NCBI GenBank assembly: GCA_964016885.1 | Contig: OZ024743.1 | Span: forward strand, 311,674,001 to 311,738,000 | From: Eledone cirrhosa | Lineage: Eukaryota | DNA length: 64,000 nt | Reading direction: 5' to 3' | Shown here: positions 12,133 to 58,868 of the stretch, piece by piece | Position numbering within the stretch: position 1 is the first letter of the stretch | Layout: each line of letters starts with the position of its first letter | Notes under the pieces: model-generated | Databases searched by the model: none | What the model was told of the DNA's origin: nothing | What the model saw: only the letters and a program-made list of their open reading frames with translations | Translations under genes and position numbers: made by a program

Positions 12133-12907
12133 AATATATTATTCCAGTCTCCACCAATACACAGGAATGAAGGAATATATTATTCCAGCCTCCACCAATA
12201 CACAGGAATGAAGGAATATATTATTCCAGCCTCCACCAATACACAGGAATGAAGGAATATATTATTCCAGCCTCCACCAATACACAGAAATAAAGGAATA
12301 TATTATTCCAGCCTCCACCAATACACAGAAATAAAGGAATATATTATTCCAACCTCCACCAATACACAGGAATGAAGGAATATATTATTCCAGCCTCCAC
12401 CAATACACAGAAATAAAAGAATATATTATTCCAGCCTCCACCAATACACAGGAATGAAGGAATATATTATTCCAGCCTCCACCAATACACAGGAATGAAG
12501 GAATATATTATTCCAGCCTCCACCAATACACAGGAATGAAGGAATATATTATTCCAGCCTCCACCAATACACAGGAATGAAGGAATATATTATTCCAGCC
12601 TCCACCAATACACAGGAATGAAGGAATATATTATTCCAGCCTCCACCAATACACAGAAATAAAGGAATATATTATTCCAGCCTCCACCAATACACAGAAA
12701 TAAAGGAATATATTATTCCAACCTCCACCAATACACAGGAATGAAGGAATATATTATTCCAGCCTCCACCAATACACAGGAATGAAGGAATATATTATTC
12801 CAGCCTCCACCAATACACAGGAATGAAGGAATATATTATTCCAGCCTCCACCAATACACAGGAATGAAGGAATATATTATTCCAGCCTCCACCAATACAC
12901 AGGAATA
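12133..12907. repeat. 41-bp minisatellite, ~19 copies
   Basis: Unit AGGAATATATTATTCCAGCCTCCACCAATACACAGGAATGA; CCACC recurs every 41 bp from 12151 to 12889. Confidence 0.95.
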
Positions 12908-33759: not shown

Positions 33760-35176
33760 TCATACACACTTATTTACATGCGCACATATGTATTTTTATA
33801 CTCACATACAAACACACAAACATACATACATACTTACATACACATACATCCACGCTATTATTAAAGAATTTTTTAGGTATATTATCCTTAATTTGTAAAT
33901 TAAATGGAGCATTATACCAAGTAACTCGTCTATTACGGTTTCTATGTTGTTTATTGTTTTTATAGGATGCATCGTGATGTTTACTAGGAGGATTAATGTT
34001 AATGACCTCACCAAGCACATTTTTAGTTAGATTTATTGATTTAGGTGTTTTAGCTTGTTTATTAGGTGTTTTATTATTAACATTTATTAGAGTTGTATGA
34101 TGAGTAGTTTTTTGAGAGTTACTATACTTTATCTTAGAGGAGTTAGAGAAATTTGGTTTTATGTTGGTATTTTGGGGTATAGTGTGAGTGGCATTTAGGT
34201 GTGTACTTTTCATTTGGTGTTTGTTGGTAATATTAGGTTGTATGTTTATAGTGTTATTAGTAGAAGGTATATATTCCAATCTATTTTTGTGGCCACTTCT
34301 ATCTAGAGCTTCGTTATAGAAGGTCGTATTTTTATCAAATACATCTTGGTTAGACGAAAGGTTAGAAATTCTAAGTGATATATTATATGCAAGGTTTTTA
34401 AGGATAGATTTAGGGTGATTAGATTGTGAGTGTATGTAGTGTAAGTTTTGGTTGGGTTTATGGTAAGGTTGGTAGATACCCGTAGCTAAGTCTAAAGTTA
34501 TATCTAGGAAATTAACTACTTTACTTGTGTTTTCAAAAGTAATATGAAGACTATAATAGTCTTTAAGGAAAGTTCTAATAAGTTTTTGTTTTTTTCTATT
34601 TCTGAGAGGCTAAGGTTGTTGGAAAGAAGAAGACAGTCATCACGATATAAACCACCTTTAAGGTGGGGAAAGGAAGCATTTATGTTAAAAAGAAGAAAGA
34701 GGCCCACAAAATCAGTAATTTGGGCAGAATCGCTTGAACCCATAGTAATATCAAATAGATTACTATATGTGTTTCTGGTCCAGCATTCATTCTGAAATTC
34801 AATAAGTGTTAGTCTAGCATGTGTAATAATATTAATGTCATCCAAAGTTAAGTTAGATCTATTTTTAGCAAATATCAAAGCTTTGTTCAGGAGTATAGGT
34901 GATATAGAAGAATAGTAATTATCTATATCAAATTGTAGAAATGAAGCAGAAGATTTACATCTAATATTTTTAAACAAGTTAATTACCTGGGAAGTGTTTT
35001 CCCAGAGTGGTAAATTAACATGTTTTCTTATTTGTGGGATGACTCTATCCAAAATTTTTTTGCTAATTATTACAATATCAGATTTGGAGGGACATATAAG
35101 TCTAATAGAAGGATTTGAGTTAAAGTTCCCAAACAGACCTGTAATTTTAAATTGTTGTTATTATCAATAAATATAC

Positions 35177-36046: not shown

Positions 36047-40528
<4,482 letters not shown>

Positions 40529-46286: not shown

Positions 46287-47797
46287 CACTTTAATACATG
46301 AATACACTTACATCTAACTATACACATCAAACATATATATATATTTACTTATTTATATACATTTTCACATATATATACATACTTATGGTCGCTTTTAGAC
46401 ACATTCATTATCGCATTTTTGCACCTATTCTCATCAGCATATCTTTCCATTATTAGTGTGGTAATTTGAGGTTATTAATATACATATATATGTTGAGAAG
46501 AGATTGTTTTTATATTTTTCTAACTAGATTGAGGTTTATATAGTTGGGGGGATGTCCCTCTTTTATGTAATATTCGGCTTGTAGTGGGAAAAAAGGGTTT
46601 TAGTTCGGTGACGGCAGAATAATGTTCGTTCAATTCTGTTATTCAGCAATTTCTTCTTGTGTGTGATTATGTAATAAATCTCAAGATTACACAATTTGCA
46701 GAAATTTTGGCTCCTGGAAAAGCTTTGGGTTTTAGCTAATTTCTCCCATTTTAGGGTAAACTTTTGATCGCTATCCCTGAGCGTCCAAGCTTTTTCTGCT
46801 AAAGTTGTTACATTTCTTTGGCTCTGGTGTTTTATTGAGTAAGAATGCCTATATAATCGAGATTTAAACGATGTTGCCGTTGATCCCACGTAATACCACT
46901 CGTTGCCTCCGGATTTAATGGTACACTTATAAATAATATTTTTTTCCAGGCAGTTATTGCCGAGGGGGCAGTTGTCAGGATAGGTGCAGTTACAGTTGTG
47001 TACGTTGGGTTTTCTCTGGAGTAGTATTGCGGACGAACTTAGGTGTGGTTTATTTATGTTCTGTAGTGTATTGTCTACTGTTTTTTTTGTGTTCTTTGTA
47101 CTTAAGTTTTTAGTGTTTTCGTTTAACCTTCTATTATTGATTGTTTTATGTGTTGTTCAAGGTAGAGTATGACAGTCTTATAGTGGTAGGGTTTAGGATT
47201 TTGTGGTATTTGTGTGATGTAGGAAAATGTCTCTTAATTATTTTAAAGAAGAGTACTGGTAAATTTGTACTAATGGAACTATTGTATTCGGGGTTATACC
47301 ATAAGTACTCTTTGCATCGCTTTCTATTAGTTTTGTTTGTTGGTTTACTGGTGTGCATACTATGGTAGTAAGTGTGGTTTGGTGTTGTGTTATTATATCT
47401 ACCTATGTGGGATTTATTTTGGGTGTTTTGATTGTTCCCATCTATATACTCTATTTTGTTGAGGTAGCCTGCTTTACTAAGGGCGTTATCGTAGTACTCG
47501 GCGTGTTCTTTAAATACTTGTATGTTAGAAGATAGACCCGAGATTCTAAGGGAAATATTTTTAGGGATAGATTTAATTATGGAGATGGGGTGGTTAGACC
47601 CAACATTTACGTATTTAAGATTTTCATTCAATTTATGAAACGGTTTAATCAGACCAGAGTTTAAATTGAGTGTGACATCCAGGAAGTTAACTACTTTAAG
47701 GTTGTATTCATATGTTATAGTTAGTCCTATTTCGAGTAGTAGTTTTCTTATATCTTTGCGTAGTTTTTCTAGTTTTTGGTTATTTAGGTTTTTAACT
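45530..47797 (-). mobile_element. 5'-truncated PLE (Nematis-like): RT thumb plus GIY-YIG
   Basis: SNHP..IIKSIP, WYNPEYN, RLSYS, CNC..CPLG.NCL, IIYKC..YVGST motifs at 46563-47631. Confidence 0.9.
45565..45685 (-). ncRNA. Hammerhead with 92-nt stem II domain (U16.1 changed to C)
   Basis: TTATT-CTGATGA-A-ATGACAGT..ACTGTTAT-A-GAAA-CACGTG-CC-AATAA. Confidence 0.7.
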
Positions 47798-47805
47798 ATA
47801 TATAT

Positions 47806-48149
<344 letters not shown>

Positions 48150-48273
48150 ATGTATATATAATGTATTTTGCAATACACTTTATGCTTAATTAAAAGCATT
48201 TTGAAGACCGTATGCTATTGTTTTAGAGTAGTGACAAATTCACTTACTTTAATCTCAGCAAACAGGGGAGATA

Positions 48274-48318
48274 AGCCGACAAGGCCTTGTTTCGCTTTTG
48301 TTGAAGCTTATCAAGGCT
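48274..48318 (-). ncRNA. Type I hammerhead with U3-A8 core, family F
   Basis: AGCC-TTGATAA-GCTT-CAACAA-AAGC-GAAA-CAAGGCCTTG-TC-GGCT; lies inside inverted arms 48140-48440. Confidence 0.88.
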
Positions 48319-48461
48319 AACTACCCCTCCTGTATACTGAGATTACTGATGTTATATTCTTATAGAATTCGGTCTTCAAAATGCTTTTAATTAAGCATAA
48401 AGAGTATTGCAAAATACATTATATATACATCCATATATATATTGCTATTTCAGAGCTCCAA

Positions 48462-48544
<83 letters not shown>

Positions 48545-51032
48545 CGAATGTAGAAAAGTAACACATGAGTTGATATAAATAAAAACAAATAGTAGAAAGG
48601 AAAAAGATACTTTCAGTAGAAAATGTTGAAGAGATTTTTTTCAGTGAGCTATTAAAACATTAATTTATTTACAATACCGGTTTCAGCATTAAATGCATTG
48701 TCAATTGCGGATATGCAGAATATTGTTAAGTTGCATATTTGTACAAATAGTGATAATAATAATAACAATGAAGAGAATGAAAATAAACAGGGGAACAAAA
48801 GTTAATTTTCACATACATGTTCATTCAGAGAAGAGATGTAATTTCTCTGTCCATTCTACTCTGCTTACAGCTTGGTTGTGACAGGTAGAAGGAGAGGATA
48901 GAGGGAAGAGGGGAGAGGAGAAAGGGAAGGAGGACTGTTGGCAGGCTGCTGTTGAAGAGTGGATGCAAGTTCTAGCTGGGGTTGGTTCGAAAGGCTGGGT
49001 GACCTTAGGGTTGACCGGAGGAAGGGGGTGGGTGCTTCTTAAAATATCTATCTTGGTATTTTTTCTTACAAGTAATCATAAGCATTGACTTTGTTTTTTT
49101 GCCACAAAGAAGATTCAGGGTTATTGAAATACTAATTCCATCCCTAGCAGAAATTTCAGATTTAGGGGAATTGAGAAAATGTTGTCACAAAAAGGCGTTC
49201 AGAGCCATTGGAATCCCCTTTCTATCTTCAGCAGAAACTTCCAAATTCAGAGGAATGTAAAGCATTTAGTTTGACACCTAAATGCTTCCATTTATCCGAT
49301 TATCTTCGTGGAAGTCCTCCAGGGCTAGCTGATTTGGGTGTTTCTATATGGTTGCTTGGTCTGCATTATATGGTTGTCAGAGGTTGCTGGAATCTTGGAG
49401 AAAGATACATTGCTAAAGGGTTAATTTGTCTAGGTGTTAATTTTAAAGTGTGCCAACTTTAGTTTAGTCCGAAGTGGAAGCATTTAGAAGGGGTTCGTAT
49501 TTGGCGATAAATTGCGATTCCTTGCTAATGCGCTGGATGTAGGAAGCGTTGTCTTTAAATTTGTAGATGGGAAAAATTCTAAAATTGGGTTGTTGATCAG
49601 ATGCGCAGGTCGCGATGTATTCACTCAATGCTATATTTCTGTATTGCCGTATTTTTATTTGGGATCTATGGACGGTCATACGTTGTCGGAGGCTGTTTTT
49701 GGTCTGTCCTATGTAGTGCTCTCGAGAACCTGAGCAGGTCAAAACATAGATCAGATTTTCTGATGCATATGTGAAATAGTGTTTAACTGTAAAGTGTTGT
49801 CCTTGTTTGAAGTGGAACTCTAATCCCTCTATTAGATTGGTACATTTACCACAGTTGGATCTTCCGCATTTTTTACTGTGGGGTTCATTGGGGGTTCGGC
49901 TGGACTTTGGCATGTGTGAGGATGTTTTTTATTAATTTGGGTTGTCTTTTGCTCTTTATGATATTGTGCGTTTGGAGGATTTGATTCATTCTTAGGTCTC
50001 TTTTTAGTAAGGGTATGTTCTGGAGGATGGTGTCGAATGCCTCATTGTTAAGGGGATTGTGTGTGGACATGTATGGTAGAGTTTTCAGTTTGGCTATCTA
50101 AGTTCCTGGATGTTGAGTTTTAGGGCACGTTGGAATCCATTGTTGATAAGGGATGGTGGGTAATTCCTGCTAATAAGTGTATTTTTTAATTCTTCTAGTC
50201 GTATGTAGCATGTGTATTTATCAGATACTATTGTGCAGATCCTTTTGGCTAGGTTGTAAGGAATGCTCATATTGGTGTGTCTAGTGTGGCATGAGTTGAA
50301 TGGAAGATACTGTTTGGAGTCTGTGGGTTTATAGTACATATCTGTTTCTATTTTGTTGTTGGTCTTCTTCATAAGGATGTCGAGGAAAGGAAGTTGCTCA
50401 TGGCTGTATTCCATTGTAAATTGAATGTTTGTGTTGAGTCCATTTAGAAGTGTTTTAAATTTAATAAGTCTTTCAATACTTTCATGCAGAGGATGAAGCA
50501 ATCATCCAGATATGTCTTCCAGTTTTTTTCTATGTGGAGGTAGAAGGGGTTTCCGTATTTATCTAGTACTTTTCGGTAGAGGGTGATTTTCAAGTATCCC
50601 ATAACAAGGTTGGGGTAAGAGGGGGCCGTTTTCGTACTCATTTCGAAGTAGCTATTCTCCAAGATGAATTTGAACCCTTTTATTACGAATTCTTTTGAGT
50701 TCATTTGTGTAATTTTCTAACCAGAATTGGATTGCTTCTATTCCTAGGTTGTGTGGAATATTGGAATAAAGGTTGACTACATCAAAAGACACTAGTATGT
50801 TCATTATTAAGTGTTTTGGGGAGGTGGTTGAGCATATCAAGGTCGTCCCTTATGTAGCTTTTGGTGTGTTTCAGGAATGGTTTTAACAGGATATCTAGGA
50901 AGTTGCTCAGGCAATTGACAATGCATTTAATGCTGAAACCGGTATTGTAGATAAATTAATGTTTTAATATCTCACTGAAAAAAATCTCTCCAGCATTTTA
51001 TACTGAAAGAATCTTTTTCCTTTCTACTGTTT

Positions 51033-51035
<3 letters not shown>
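48545..51035 (-). mobile_element. 5'-truncated Neptune-type PLE with inverted terminal copy
   Basis: RT/GIY-YIG fragments 49464-50910 homologous to 19690-21200; 50911-51035 is the inverse of ~48585-48708. Confidence 0.92.
50911..50948 (+). ncRNA. Minimal hammerhead with U3-A8 core
   Basis: GCAA-TTGACAA-T-GCAT..ATGC-T-GAAA-CCGG-TA-TTGT; minus copy at 48671-48708. Confidence 0.8.
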
Positions 51036-51102
<67 letters not shown>

Positions 51103-51464
51103 GAGTGAGGAATAAGTAAGTAAAATAATTAAAATTTGGCTTTACTCCGGAGTAATCAAACCAACCTGCGTACTTCGTCGAGTGCTCCAATCTGCATACT
51201 GAGGTGTCGGTAAACAACCAACATATAGAGGAAATATTCTTTATATTAAAGAATAAAAAAAAAAAAAAGAAAGAAGAAATATTTTCTCCTTTCAAGAGCT
51301 CTCAATATATTTCTCTAGAATAGTTTATTATATTTATATCTATTTATATTTAGGAAGAAAAGTTATTTTTACTTGAGTGTATAATCAGTCAAAAAAAGAT
51401 GAAGGAATCTAATGATTTATCAACAGGTTCAATATATTAATAAAATTAATTAATTAATTATATA

Positions 51465-51760
51465 CTACATTTTGAATTTATATTTATATTTAAACGTTGA
51501 GTTTAATCTATGTCTGCAGCAACTGAATAAATTATTTCTTAAGTTCAGGGAATTTTTGGTCTTTAATATAAAGAATATTTCCTCTATACAAAGATCGCAA
51601 TTTTCTGAAGAGGAGTTAAAAGGAGTAGCTTTTGAAATAATATTCCAAATCAACGAATATTCAACGTTCTTTAGTTTTATGTCACATAATAGGCTAGATA
51701 GAGAAGTTGAAGATTTTTTTGTTTGGATCTGTAAAAGAATTTTTATGATTTTTATTGTTC
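51465..51760 (-). pseudogene. PLE GIY-YIG C-terminal fragment
   Basis: WNIISKA.PF..S..CDLCIEE.FFI...LN.R..L.SCCRH. Confidence 0.8.
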
Positions 51761-52174
51761 TGATAGCTTCTCCTATTTTCGGAATTTTAAGTTAAATATA
51801 CGTAAAATAAATTTCTATACTAAATCTATTAAACATACTATTATTTTGAAATTATAACTTAAAATATTCTATAATATTTTAAAATTATTCTATAATAATT
51901 TAAAATTATATTTCCAAATTGTAATATAATTCTTTTGCATTTTATGTACTCAATTATACTATGTACTGTATTTATATATACTTCTCTCTATATGTGAGTA
52001 TATATGTATATGTGTGTATTGACATACATGTACATATGTTTTATGCGTTTTTATGAATGTATGTCTGTCTGTATGTATGGTTGAGGGTACACATATGTAT
52101 ATATGTATATGTGGGAATTGTGTATATACATATGCGTGTATATCCATACAATTTGATTGCACTTATGTAATACA

Positions 52175-52229
52175 CATGTAAAGTTTGAAAAGAGTCGGTT
52201 GGGTATTTCTCGAGTTTTAGGGATTCAAA

Positions 52230-52267
<38 letters not shown>

Positions 52268-52550
52268 TCCTCAGGGAAGTGACGTAATGCAGACAGATAT
52301 TATAAGGGCGCGAAGTTATATGTATGTATCTATCTAAAAAGAGAAAGACTAAGAATTATAGAGAGAGATCGTTAAATCGCCTAATGCGGTCCCTAGAGCA
52401 TTGAAAATTTGAAATTTTCTTTCCTCGGAACACTTCCTGAAACATAAGTATTACATGTGTAAAGTTTGAAAACAGTCGGTTGGGTGTTTCTCGAGTTTTA
52501 GGGATTCAAACTCTCACACACACACAGACAGACATAATTAATTTTATATA
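52175..52550 (-). mobile_element. Helitron 5' fragment
   Basis: 52283-52385 matches 6810-6920; internal direct repeat. Confidence 0.6.
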
Positions 52551-52765
52551 TATATATATATTATTAGAAATATAAGCTATCGCCGTATTTTGACTAAAGA
52601 AATTAAAGAAATTATTTAGCCTGATAGTGGGGTTAAGAACCCTCGGAGAAATGGAAAAAGATGAGTATTGACGTACATGGGAGTCGAACCCACATCTTTG
52701 GTTATCCGGACCACTGTGATACCATTTACACCAACTCGCTGTTTCGAAAATATTCAAGGGGGACA

Positions 52766-52809
52766 ACCGTCTATGCATTTCAGGCTTAACTGGCCGTCAT
52801 CAGGACGGT
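52766..52809 (-). ncRNA. Minimal type I hammerhead, family B
   Basis: ACCGTC-CTGATGA-C-GGC-CAGTTAA-GCC-T-GAAA-TGCA-TA-GACGGT; octamer 52895-52902 and TATATT 52854-52859 upstream. Confidence 0.9.
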
Positions 52810-53024
52810 CCTTCCCACCGCTTGCGACTGCCGGACTAGAAGACAGGCGAGAAAATATACTTTTCTCGTCTCTGTAAATGAGGTGATTAATCTCATTTGC
52901 ATATGAAGCTGCATAAGTTGGCTCAACTTATAATAAAAAAAGAAATAGGATTCCGCTTCAAGCATAACTTTATACAATATGTATAAATATTTCGTATCTC
53001 CAAGGAAATACGGTTTTAGGAAAT

Positions 53025-53088
<64 letters not shown>

Positions 53089-53234
53089 TTATATATAAAT
53101 ATATATATAAAATATATATATATATATATATATATATTAGTAGAACACTGGAAGGTAATATCCGTAGTGGTAGAGCACTCAGTCCATGGGACGAGTTAGG
53201 TAGAAGTGGTTACACAACAGTTAGTTCCCCATAC

Positions 53235-53272
53235 CGAGAACAATTGTTTCACCTTAGCGGATCCTCAGCTCG
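53235..53272 (-). ncRNA. Minimal type I hammerhead
   Basis: CGAG-CTGAGGA-T-CC-GCTAA-GG-T-GAAA-CAATTG-TT-CTCG. Confidence 0.8.
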
Positions 53273-53321
53273 TAATGGACATGGTTATACGGAACAGGAA
53301 GGGCAACCGTATGTATATGTA

Positions 53322-53356
<35 letters not shown>

Positions 53357-53363
<7 letters not shown>

Positions 53364-53808
53364 GAATTGGTGCTCTGAAATAGCGATATATATATATGAA
53401 TGTGTATATAGTGTATTTTGCAATACACTGTATGCTTAATTAAAAGCATTTTGAAGACCTTATGCTATTGTTTTAGAATAGTGACAGTCTCACTTACTTT
53501 AAATTTTCAGCAAACATGGGGAGATAAAGCTGACAGAGCTCTGTTTCGTACTGTTTGGTACTTATCAAAGCTAAGTACTCCACCTGTTTGCTGAAAATCA
53601 CGAATGTTTGATTCTTATAGAATTCTAGTAATATTCAGGAACTGATTATACAGAGCGGTTGCCGGTCAAGCAGAAATTAAAAATTAGAATTGGTGCTCTG
53701 AAATGGCGATATATATATGAATGTATATATAGTGTATTTTGCAATACACTGTATGCTTAACTAAAAAGCATTTTGAAGACCTTACGGTATTGTTTTAGAG
53801 TAGTGACA

Positions 53809-56603: not shown

Positions 56604-58683
56604 AAAGGTAAACAGAAATAACAATACAATCGGTACAGTATATGGAAGGTATATATTAGGTTAACGCTTGATATAGCAGGAAGATGGTCTTAACGTCTCG
56701 GACGCTAGTCCTTCATCAGAAGAAAGAATGAGAAATAAAATAGATTGAGGGGACGGGCGGAATGGAATTGGAAAATAATGTCTTTAGATAGAAAATAACA
56801 GGTCCATTCATGTTGACATCTCTTGCAAAACTGTTGGTGCTGGCGTTTTTTGTATGATTTATTTTTTAGAAAAGTGGATGATGGAGCTGCAATGGAAAAA
56901 AAGCGTTTAGTAAAAAGAGCTATACTTGAGCACGTGCGTAAGCATGTGTTTGTACGTGTGTTTGTGTGTGTGTGTTATTATAGGTCTGTACGAAGGTAAG
57001 AAGAAATGTGTGTGTATATGTGAGTAAGAGAGTGTGTGTGTGCATGTAAGTACGAAGCTATGAGCAAAAGTATGTTAATATAAGGGTGTGTATAGGCATG
57101 TATTAGTTGTAAGAGAAGCTGCTAATGATCAAGAGAAAGCGATAGGAATCTAGGGGTGTGATAATGGACGGGGTATTTGAGAAATTGGGGAGGTGAGTTG
57201 AGTCCAAGAGGGGAATAGGACCGAAGACGGTGAATCGGACTTTGTCTGTGATCCATGACTGAAACACCCAGGACTGAAACATGTAGGGAAGAATGACCAG
57301 GAGAATAGAAATGACGAGTGACAGGAGTATCCAAACCGAGTCTGATGTCCCTCAAATGTTCGGCGAAATGGACCGCCATACGGCGTCCCGTTTGTCCGAT
57401 ATATAAAGACTCACAAAGGGAACACCGGAGCGCATAGACAACGTGGGTGGATGTGCAGGTGAAGGAATGGCGGATACGGAAAGACTCGTTAGGGCCTGTA
57501 AGAGTGGTGAGGGTGGAAATAAAGGGAAAAGTATTGCAGCGGGAACAGGAACAAGGATGAGAGCCGGGTAGAGTCGTGGGAGAGGACGAAAAGGAACTGC
57601 GAACCAGACGCGCTTAAAAGCAGTAATGGGTGGGTTTGAAAAAAGCGAGAAGTTACGGGTTCAGAAGAAAGGATACGGAAGGAACGGAGCATATGTCGCC
57701 GGAGTGGTAGGGTGATGGGTGGTAGGTGAGAGGGAAAGGAACACGGGTGTTGGGAGGGCGGAGTGAGGTGAGAGGGCTGTGGTGCGGTCTGTTTGATGGG
57801 TGCCGGTGAGAGCAGCTTGGATCAAGGTGGGGGGATATCCACGCTGGATGAAGCAGGAAGCCATGCGAAGGGAATGGGTTTCGAAATCGTCGTCCTGGCT
57901 ACAGAGTTGACGAAGACGGAGGAATTTGGAATAGGCTATGGAGTGTTTCGTGTGGGTTGGATAGGAGGGGGTGAAGTCGAGATAAGATTGGGAGTCTGTT
58001 GGTTTAATGTGGATGGAAGTAGAGAGGGTGTGGTGAGAGTGATTAATAGATAAAGAGATATCTAGATAAGCGACAGAAGAATCGGAGACAGAGGCGGTGA
58101 AATTGAGATCAGGATGGAAAGATAGGACAAAAAAAAGAAAACAGTCGAGCTGTTCTCGTGATAGAGAGGTGGCGCCGATACAGTCGTCGATATAACGACC
58201 GTATAGCTCAGGTGTCGGTCCAGCGTACTGGGAGAAGATCTGGGCTTCGACGTGGCCAACAAACAAGTTGGCATAGTTTGGACCCATTCTGGTTACCATC
58301 GCTACCCCAGAGACCTGATGGTAAAATTCACCCGAAAAATAAAATCCATTAAGGGCGAGAACAAGCTCCGCCAAACGGAGAAGAGTGGTAGTGCTGGGGT
58401 AAGGGGTAGGGCGTAAATCTAAAAAATGCTGAAGAGGGCGGAGGCCGTCATCATGAGGGATGACGGTATAGAGAGAGGTGATGTCCAGGGTAAAGAGAAG
58501 GCGGGAGGGACCAGGAGGGAAGGAGAAAGAGTTGAAGAGTCTAAGGGAATGATTTGTATCGTGGATGTGGGAGGGGAGATTTCTGACCAACGGGGCGAGG
58601 ATGGTGTCTAAATATTCTGAAACTATCTCGGTGGGGCAGTTGCACGCAGAAACGATAGGATGATTTTGTTTGTGTATTTTGGG
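56601..58683 (-). mobile_element. 5'-truncated Neptune-type PLE with 3' hammerhead (56688-56723, GAAA changed to GAGA)
   Basis: ORF 57661-58590 LDITSLYTVIP, TRMGPNYANL, RYIDD, KPTDS; GIY-YIG LYIGQTGR..FAEH. Confidence 0.93.
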
Positions 58684-58868
58684 ATATATATAGATAGATA
58701 GATAGATAGATAAATATACACGGGTGTGTATGATTGTGTATAGAAGATTATATTAATAAGAGGAATTCCAACTTTGTCTGATTTACTCGTTTTATTTACA
58801 ATCCTTTAAAATTTATAATGGTATTATAATGAAATAGAATGATAGAATATTAAATGTTAAGTGTTAAT

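What the first reader, a model, noticed from the sequence alone, without database searches (positions are those of the whole stretch)
48251..53597. U3-A8 compensatory catalytic core with three-stem covariation
Seen: the 48274 and 53528 copies both read TTGATAA instead of CTGATGA, yet differ by paired changes in stem I (AGCC/GGCT vs AGCT/AGCT), stem II (GCTT/AAGC vs GTAC/GTAC) and stem III (CAAGGCCTTG vs CAGAGCTCTG). Both have a long bulged stem I extension. The same double change occurs in two other families (TTGACAA at 48698/50915; TTGAAAA at 40355/36214). Established: positions 3 and 8 form a tertiary Watson-Crick pair and U3-A8 is a tolerated variant. This indicates selection on the RNA fold, and standard CUGANGA searches would miss these copies.
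Basis: partly seen in the sequence, partly recalled or inferred. Interest (0 to 1): 0.72.

Follow-up and report, generated by a model that had tools for sequence, protein, structure and literature searches.

The report
Pair-activated variant hammerhead in a retrozyme
The two motifs are hammerhead-type RNA folds, predicted to cut themselves, inside a 320-base jumping repeat with thousands of copies; their unusual core letters are already published, but the repeat's subfamilies show paired changes that keep the fold, and a single unit is predicted to lock itself and cut mainly when two units sit side by side.

Summary
Both motifs are real type I hammerheads on the minus strand (predicted cuts after 48278 and 53532). 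They are two subfamilies of one ~320-bp non-coding repeat: a non-LTR retrozyme with Penelope-type insertion ends in (TA)n. Genome-wide, one pattern gives 3300 U3-A8, 668 C3-G8 and only 98 + 97 mismatched cores. The C3-G8 copies belong to the same repeat family, on one side of one branch, so the core switch is a single event of unknown direction. Across subfamilies 12 of 29 pairs show two-sided changes. U3-A8 is known from nature (Perreault 2011) and from Penelope elements (Cervera 2014), and this scan noted U3-A8 retrozymes on other DNA. Of the two 'other families', 48698/50915 is one element's hammerhead plus its inverted copy, and 40355/36214 fails the hammerhead core. Added here, by prediction only: stem III is a 12-nt palindrome. 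Single units and circles fold with U3-U4-G5 paired to its 5' half (inactive), while tandem units fold as a double hammerhead (15 of 21). No cleavage or expression data.

The parts
48138..48370 (-). Retrozyme copy 1 (subfamily H1), direct arm: 5'-truncated, unit positions 228-320 then 1-142, 97.9% to the reference unit; 3' end at the 'short' start site, running into (TA)n 48016-48160
48252..48341 (-). Type I hammerhead 1 with extended bulged stem I: stem I 5' arm 48318-48315, core U3..A9 48314-48308, stem II 48307-48294, GAA 48293-48291, palindromic stem III 48290-48279, C17 48278 (predicted cut between 48278 and 48277), stem I 3' arm 48277-48274
48362..48468 (+). Inverted arm of copy 1 (unit 60-168, no ribozyme), ending at the 'long' start site, into (AT)n 48467-48544
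53354..53808 (-). Retrozyme copy 2 (subfamily H6): 453 nt, unit 42-320 then 1-174, one ribozyme; (TA)n on both sides
53503..53597 (-). Type I hammerhead 2: core 53568-53562, stem II 53561-53548, stem III 53544-53533, C17 53532 (predicted cut between 53532 and 53531), stem I 3' arm 53531-53528
48671..48708 (-). Separate family: minimal U3-A8 hammerhead (TTGACAA, 6-nt palindromic stem III) downstream of a broken Penelope-like RT/GIY-YIG element
50911..50948 (+). Inverted copy of the same minimal hammerhead at the 5' end of that insertion
49464..50501 (-). Longest open pieces of the broken Penelope-like ORF lying between the two retrozyme copies (GIY-YIG, Pfam E 3e-7); not part of the retrozyme
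40349..40390 (+). Hammerhead-like but core-defective motif (GATA for GAAA, G17, no stem II); duplicate near 36185-36226 (-)

Best explanation
The two motifs are type I hammerhead folds with a U3-A8 core, carried by two subfamilies of a ~320-bp non-coding repeat (a non-LTR retrozyme) that likely cuts its own tandem transcripts as a double hammerhead and is likely pasted into (TA)n runs by a Penelope-type enzyme. Shown: the motif, the repeat family, the covariation between subfamilies, one core switch between a U3-A8 clade and a C3-G8 clade, and the insertion anatomy. Predicted by folding: in a transcript of two tandem units the two 12-nt stem III palindromes pair with each other and both cores are free, releasing a unit-length RNA. 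In a lone unit or a circle, the stem I 5' arm plus U3-U4-G5 pairs with the 5' half of the palindrome, which would switch the ribozyme off. Inferred from published retrozymes and Penelope biochemistry: the released unit is circularised by a host ligase, and a Penelope (probably Neptune-type) RT-endonuclease starts reverse transcription at two internal sites 26 nt apart (unit positions ~142 and ~168). Selection acted on the few source copies that founded subfamilies. The two window copies each hold one ribozyme and are likely passive, decaying insertions.
For: Family: 1869 and 2446 first-look candidates, of which 40 were scored each at 97-100%. Unit 314-324 bp, GC 33-35%, no shared ORF. Core counts with backwards-pattern controls: U3-A8 3300 (53), C3-G8 668 (9), C3-A8 98 (29), U3-G8 97 (31). 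C3-G8 copies match the same unit at about 82%. They form one side of a 99/93 branch in a 129-copy tree of 3' flank sequence, with mismatched cores as scattered tips; support is 100/99 in the tree of 10 subfamily consensuses outside the ribozyme. Covariation in 14 rows: 97.8% of cells paired, 12 of 29 pairs with two-sided changes (all 4 of stem II), 0 of 500 shuffles as high, slid controls 0-1 pairs. Between the two window subfamilies, 12 changes fall as 6 whole pairs among 14 pairs (p about 1e-4 before asking for complementarity). The palindrome centre pair, which in a hairpin would close only a 2-nt loop, covaries A-U 8, G-U 1, G-C 5. Tandems: the double-hammerhead fold is lower in energy than two single folds in 19 of 21 genomic tandems, and inter-unit stem III has probability >=0.88 in 15 of 21. 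The gap of -19, -17 and -9 kcal/mol shrinks to -2 to -4 with non-palindromic loops. The locked fold has probability 0.95-0.99 in 6 of 6 U3-A8 circles and 0.71 in the one C3-G8 circle. Insertion ends: 151 of 166 segment 3' ends lie at ~142 or ~160-179; 103 of 166 are followed by (TA)>=7 against 7% background; 84 of 125 loci have an inverted part. Of 63 two-armed insertions, 48 have one short and one long end, 3 have two of the same kind, and 12 have an unclassified end. Literature.
Against: No cleavage assay and no RNA evidence here. Nearest-neighbour folding ignores tertiary contacts and Mg2+, and penalises three-way junctions, so the monomer could be active despite a predicted 2-7 kcal/mol deficit. 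The motif has an HH9-like loop 2 and bulged stem I, typical of monomer-active canonical hammerheads. Subfamilies H7/H7b break the palindrome at one pair (homoduplex -7.3 against about -20) yet amplified. The C3-G8 clade has a G.A centre and almost no lock (0.5-0.7 kcal/mol). 6 of 21 tandems did not fold as dimers. 5' ends do not pile up at the cut site, and the anole Penelope hammerhead was dispensable for insertion in vitro. No autonomous partner carrying this unit as its pLTR was found: PLE protein hits in 12 of 125 loci, only L034 within 30 nt. Subfamilies are related, so shuffle tests overstate significance (tool's own caveat).
Confidence: 0.62

Rival explanations
1. Same retrozyme, but each ribozyme works as a monomer, held by loop 1-loop 2 contacts; the palindrome and the 'locked' fold are by-products.
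For: Stem III can form 4 bp with a tetraloop, longer than in dimer-dependent amphibian motifs; loop 2 and the stem I bulge resemble Rfam HH9. Invertebrate retrozyme hammerheads cleave as monomers. H7/H7b and the C3-G8 clade have imperfect palindromes. The lock exceeds random-palindrome nulls at p<=0.05 in only 5 of 12 representatives.
Against: The loop pair covaries through a G-U intermediate, which a monomer hairpin does not need. The H1 stem III has no stable hairpin on its own (0.0 kcal/mol) but a -19.5 homoduplex.
Confidence: 0.27
2. The fold is kept for a non-catalytic role, such as a binding or folding element for the Penelope protein, and cleavage is weak or irrelevant to spread.
For: In the anole element, cleavage needed protein and was dispensable for insertion, and no RNA-seq ends lay at the cut site. 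No 5'-end pile-up at the cut site here.
Against: All listed core positions and the GUC site stay at consensus in the recurrent haplotypes, and the 3-8 pair stays Watson-Crick in both clades; that pattern fits selection on catalysis.
Confidence: 0.08
3. Chance or neutral drift: decayed C3-G8 hammerheads hit by two independent transitions.
For: C-to-T and G-to-A are common transitions in an AT-rich genome.
Against: Single mutants are about 3% of cores while double 'mutants' are the majority; copies are only 3-5% diverged from their subfamily consensus.
Confidence: 0.01

Closest known systems
Metazoan non-LTR retrozymes (Cervera and de la Pena 2020, PMC7229834; passages and section 14 read)
   Same: About 300-bp, low-GC, non-coding tandem unit with a type I hammerhead; thousands of copies; axolotl members cleave better as dimers through a palindromic loop 3.
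   Different: U3-A8 core in most copies, with a C3-G8 sister clade; a 12-nt stem III palindrome; mostly 1-3 units with inverted arms in (TA)n, not long arrays; RNA circles not shown here.
U3-A8 minimal hammerheads of Schistosoma Cercyon Penelope-like elements (Cervera and de la Pena 2014, PMC4209133; parts 1-2 of 4 read)
   Same: Same core swap (about 1,300 hits there), palindromic 15.2-16.2 region, proposed dimeric action. The 48698/50915 family fits this class directly.
   Different: The 48314/53568 motifs are not minimal: they have a long stem III, a 6-nt HH9-like loop 2 and a long bulged stem I, and lie in a unit without an ORF.
Natural U3-A8 core variants and palindromic stem III repeats (Perreault et al. 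2011, PMC3088659; passages read)
   Same: C3-G8 to U3-A8 covariation in nature, earlier shown active in vitro; Aedes repeat hammerheads with a 10-bp dimer stem III.
   Different: Here both core states occur in one repeat family with a resolved subfamily tree.
Penelope-like element insertion mechanism (Frangieh et al. 2024, PMC11167929, main text read; Craig et al. 2021, PMC8557442, passages; Li et al. bioRxiv 10.64898/2026.07.22.740005, abstract and results part 1 of 2)
   Same: Two internal RT start sites bounding an optional tail, AT-rich targets, partial tandems with an inverted 5'-truncated arm; retrozymes as non-autonomous PLE derivatives.
   Different: The tail is about 26 nt here, against 30-40 nt; the partner enzyme is not identified.

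Membership tests
Type I hammerhead ribozyme | Core N3-U4-G5-A6-N7-N8-A9, G12-A13-A14, A15.1-U16.1, H17 | tested here: met
   All present, with Watson-Crick U3-A8 in place of C3-G8 and C17
Type I hammerhead ribozyme | Three helices around the core, helix I open-ended, with covariation | tested here: met
   12 of 29 pairs with two-sided changes, 97.8% of cells paired
Type I hammerhead ribozyme | Reaches an Rfam hammerhead gathering score | tested here: not met
   HH9 23.9 and 21.5 bits against 52; 3 of 8 further loci matched HH9 below the cut-off. HH9 is a narrow amniote family, so this bears on HH9 membership only.
Type I hammerhead ribozyme | Self-cleavage after H17 | not testable with these tools
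   Needs an assay
Non-LTR retrozyme | 150-450-bp low-GC non-coding unit with a type I hammerhead, in tandem copies | tested here: met
   314-324 bp, GC 33-35%, no shared ORF, 21 tandem pairs
Non-LTR retrozyme | Expressed as unit-length linear and circular RNA | not testable with these tools
   Needs RNA data for this organism
Penelope-mobilised element | Two fixed 3' ends (tail), partial tandems, inverted 5'-truncated arm, microsatellite target | tested here: met
Penelope-mobilised element | Homology to the pLTR of an autonomous PLE | tested here: inconclusive
   None among 125 loci; one near-direct junction with a Neptune-like RT (L034); no genome-wide search was made for this
PLE minimal hammerhead (48698/50915) | Core plus short palindromic 15/16 region, in the terminal repeat of an RT/GIY-YIG element | tested here: met
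   note a U.U mismatch at 10.1-11.1 and fold z of only -0.4
Hammerhead (40355/36214 motif) | G12-A13-A14, H17 and stem II | tested here: not met
   GATA, G17 and no stem II in all 20 loci

The most novel reading that the evidence does not exclude
The family encodes an evolved safety catch. One 7-nt segment (stem I 5' arm plus N3-U4-G5) has two mutually exclusive jobs: the active core, or a helix with the 5' half of the stem III palindrome. Subfamilies changed positions 2.1, 3, 15.4 and 15.5 one at a time through G-U wobbles without passing a C-A state, so the lock survived together with stem I, the palindrome and the 3-8 pair. The U3-A8 clade would be a monomer-locked, dimer-only ribozyme that protects its circular RNA from re-cutting, and the C3-G8 sister clade a partly monomer-active one. 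That makes a natural paired series for testing how a catalytic base pair switches and how cleavage is gated by copy number.
Probability: 0.27. Interest if true: 0.58.

Novelty: new member of a known kind. Interest (0 to 1): 0.36.

Why it matters
The core variant is not news. What the locus adds is a natural series: about ten closely related subfamilies (7-12% apart outside the ribozyme between the main groups) with both core states and graded stem III palindromes. They allow direct comparison of U3-A8 with C3-G8, and of monomer with dimer cleavage, in near-identical backbones. The fixed 142/168 ends give a short non-coding substrate for testing trans-mobilisation by a Penelope enzyme.

Tried and rejected
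Expression: the one run search listed 3 runs of one study and no RNA holder; no reads were laid, and this is no evidence either way. Direction of the core switch: unresolved. Midpoint rooting nests C3-G8 among U3-A8, while C3-G8 copies are slightly more diverged (median 5.0% against 4.3%, p 0.04, 45 and 88 copies); no outgroup. Other stem III starts: only 53 matches with non-A at 15.3, looking like single mutants. Repeat finder on the window was swamped by microsatellites. The circular and tandem folds used wrong coordinates and are discarded; replace them (one search stopped with an error after its table). The (TA)n test (122 of 128) may be inflated by the unit's own AT tract, so the stricter test is cited. 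The lock helix as a covarying structure is weak evidence: 92.9% paired, 2 of 7 pairs two-sided, only about four events on a ladder, and it was found after the fact. Naiad as partner: considered and not favoured, because nearby PLE pieces have the endonuclease C-terminal; 'Neptune-type' is my recalled reading of motifs, not a database call. Przybilski and Hammann 2007 was not held and is cited only through Perreault 2011. Not-in-print check: five paper searches returned lists, and I saw no description of this family or of this lock in the listings or passages read. Supplements were not opened and subscription papers are not covered, so this is weak. 'Octopus' and 'cephalopod' as search words were my guess at the host, not a result.
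Full report
1. Observation. A structure scan of both strands found the two motifs exactly as described, on the minus strand: U3 at 48314 and 53568, predicted cuts after C17 at 48278 and 53532. The relaxed scan gave 12 motifs in the window against 0.77 in shuffled windows, and 0.03 at the score of these two (30 shuffles). The extended hairpins have z = -5.7 and -6.6. Rfam reports no hammerhead at gathering level and HH9 at 23.9 and 21.5 bits; the HH9 alignment matches stem II, loop 2 and the bulged stem I.

The side claims are weaker. 48698/50915 is a real minimal U3-A8 hammerhead, fixed in its family (20 loci), but the two copies are the direct and inverted ends of one broken RT/GIY-YIG element. 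40355/36214 is one inverted duplication, and its family has GATA, G17 and no stem II, so it fails the core consensus used by Perreault 2011.

2. What it is. Each motif has thousands of first-look candidates in the 3.0-Gb genome. The shared sequence is a 314-324-bp unit of 33-35% GC with no shared ORF, found as single units, partial tandems and inverted arms. The two window copies belong to two subfamilies 12% apart outside the ribozyme (26 of 216 sites). Each window insertion holds only one ribozyme.

Not all matches are family members, but most of the listed U3-A8 and C3-G8 ones are. C3-G8 copies share the unit. A tree of 129 copies (kept from 159 parsed motifs by homology of the 3' flank) puts them on one side of a 99/93 branch, with mismatched cores as scattered tips. 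The tree of 10 subfamily consensuses outside the ribozyme gives 100/99. So the double change happened once in this family, and its direction is unresolved. The mismatched share of about 3% fits neutral decay of copies that are 3-5% diverged.

Among 231 copies covering the ribozyme (211 parsed) I defined 12 recurrent haplotypes and aligned one representative of each plus the two window copies. Twelve of 29 pairs change on both sides, including all four of stem II, one in stem I, four in the extension, two in the palindrome and the 3-8 pair; slid controls give 0-1. Rows are related and were chosen by motif, so this overstates significance. The pairwise count between the two window subfamilies (12 changes as 6 whole pairs, p about 1e-4) does not rest on shuffling.

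3. Mechanism. Stem III is a perfect 12-nt palindrome in the main U3-A8 subfamilies (homoduplex -18 to -20 kcal/mol, hairpin 0 to -1.8). Its inner pair covaries A-U, G-U, G-C. In genomic tandems the double hammerhead beats two single folds in 19 of 21 cases and dominates the ensemble in 15 of 21 (some tandems share a unit); the L002 minimum-energy structure is the double hammerhead with both cores unpaired. Non-palindromic loops remove most of the advantage. Single units and circles instead pair the stem I 5' arm and U3-U4-G5 with the 5' half of the palindrome, 2-7 kcal/mol below the active fold in U3-A8 subfamilies and 0.5-0.7 in C3-G8 ones. These are thermodynamic predictions without tertiary contacts. 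Against them: H7/H7b break the palindrome, the lock beats random palindromes at p<=0.05 in only 5 of 12 representatives, and its own covariation is thin.

Insertion ends do not lie at the cut site. The 3' ends cluster at about 142 and about 168 nt after it (151 of 166), next to (TA)n (103 of 166 against 7%), and 5' ends are spread out. Two-armed insertions use one end of each kind in 48 of 63, and in 48 of the 51 with both ends classified. I tested this rule after seeing it in an earlier scan note on another family. It matches the two internal RT start sites and tail of a purified Penelope enzyme and the known tandem/inverted layout. The partner is not identified; L034 joins the unit to a Neptune-like RT within 30 nt. 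Circularisation by a host ligase is taken from published retrozymes.

4. Comparison. It works like, and meets the sequence criteria of, a non-LTR retrozyme of the Penelope-dependent kind; expression and cleavage are untested. U3-A8 was reported in nature in 2011, as active in vitro by earlier work, and in about 1,300 Schistosoma Penelope motifs in 2014. Dimer action through palindromic stem III is also published. The scan has noted U3-A8 retrozymes before, in this genome (a 591-base family) and in others; none matched this sequence or place.

5. Verdict. A real, selected ribozyme fold; a new member of a known kind. The most novel open reading is a conserved self-lock that makes the U3-A8 clade dimer-only (probability about 0.27). 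Interest 0.36.

Noticed in passing
window 52760-52810 (-) and 52669-52740 (-): A C3-G8 minimal hammerhead lies about 20 nt upstream of a tRNA-like sequence (Rfam tRNA 31.2 bits) on the same strand; possibly a SINE-like unit headed by a ribozyme.
   Followed up: no
window 1014 (+), 24539 (+), 4390 (+)/4308 (-), 16117 (+)/15908 (-), 58902 (counted on +): Several further C3-G8 hammerhead-like motifs with 6-9-nt stem III; 1014 and 24539 are relatives that differ in stem I and stem II. The 58902 hit was not verified in context.
   Followed up: no
window 40349-40390 (+) and duplicate near 36214 (-): The core-defective motif (GATA, G17, palindromic CAGCTG in place of stem II, 6-bp stem I) is fixed in a family with about 1000 candidates at a pLTR-like position; either a vestige or an untested atypical fold.
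   Followed up: partly
window 19170-21200 (+), 33770-35157 (-), 38526-39191 (-), 46563-47853 (-), 57122-58752 (-): At least five more Penelope-like RT/GIY-YIG pieces in 64 kb, all broken or truncated.
   Followed up: partly
L034:1368-3106: Retrozyme tandem joined within 30 nt to a Neptune-like RT fragment in the opposite orientation, with no (TA)n between; a possible template-switch chimera.
   Followed up: partly
L211 (G000:C1:82390100-82396300): A longer, decayed tandem array of the unit with at least 6 pattern matches over 6 kb, unlike the usual 1-3 units.
   Followed up: no
C3-G8 subfamilies H8/H9 (e.g. L237:302-399, L078:1471-1568): The stem III centre is GA and loop 2 is one base shorter; in a dimer the centre would be a tandem G.A pair.
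   Followed up: partly
window 12133-12906: 41-bp tandem repeat, 18.9 copies, 97% matches.
   Followed up: no
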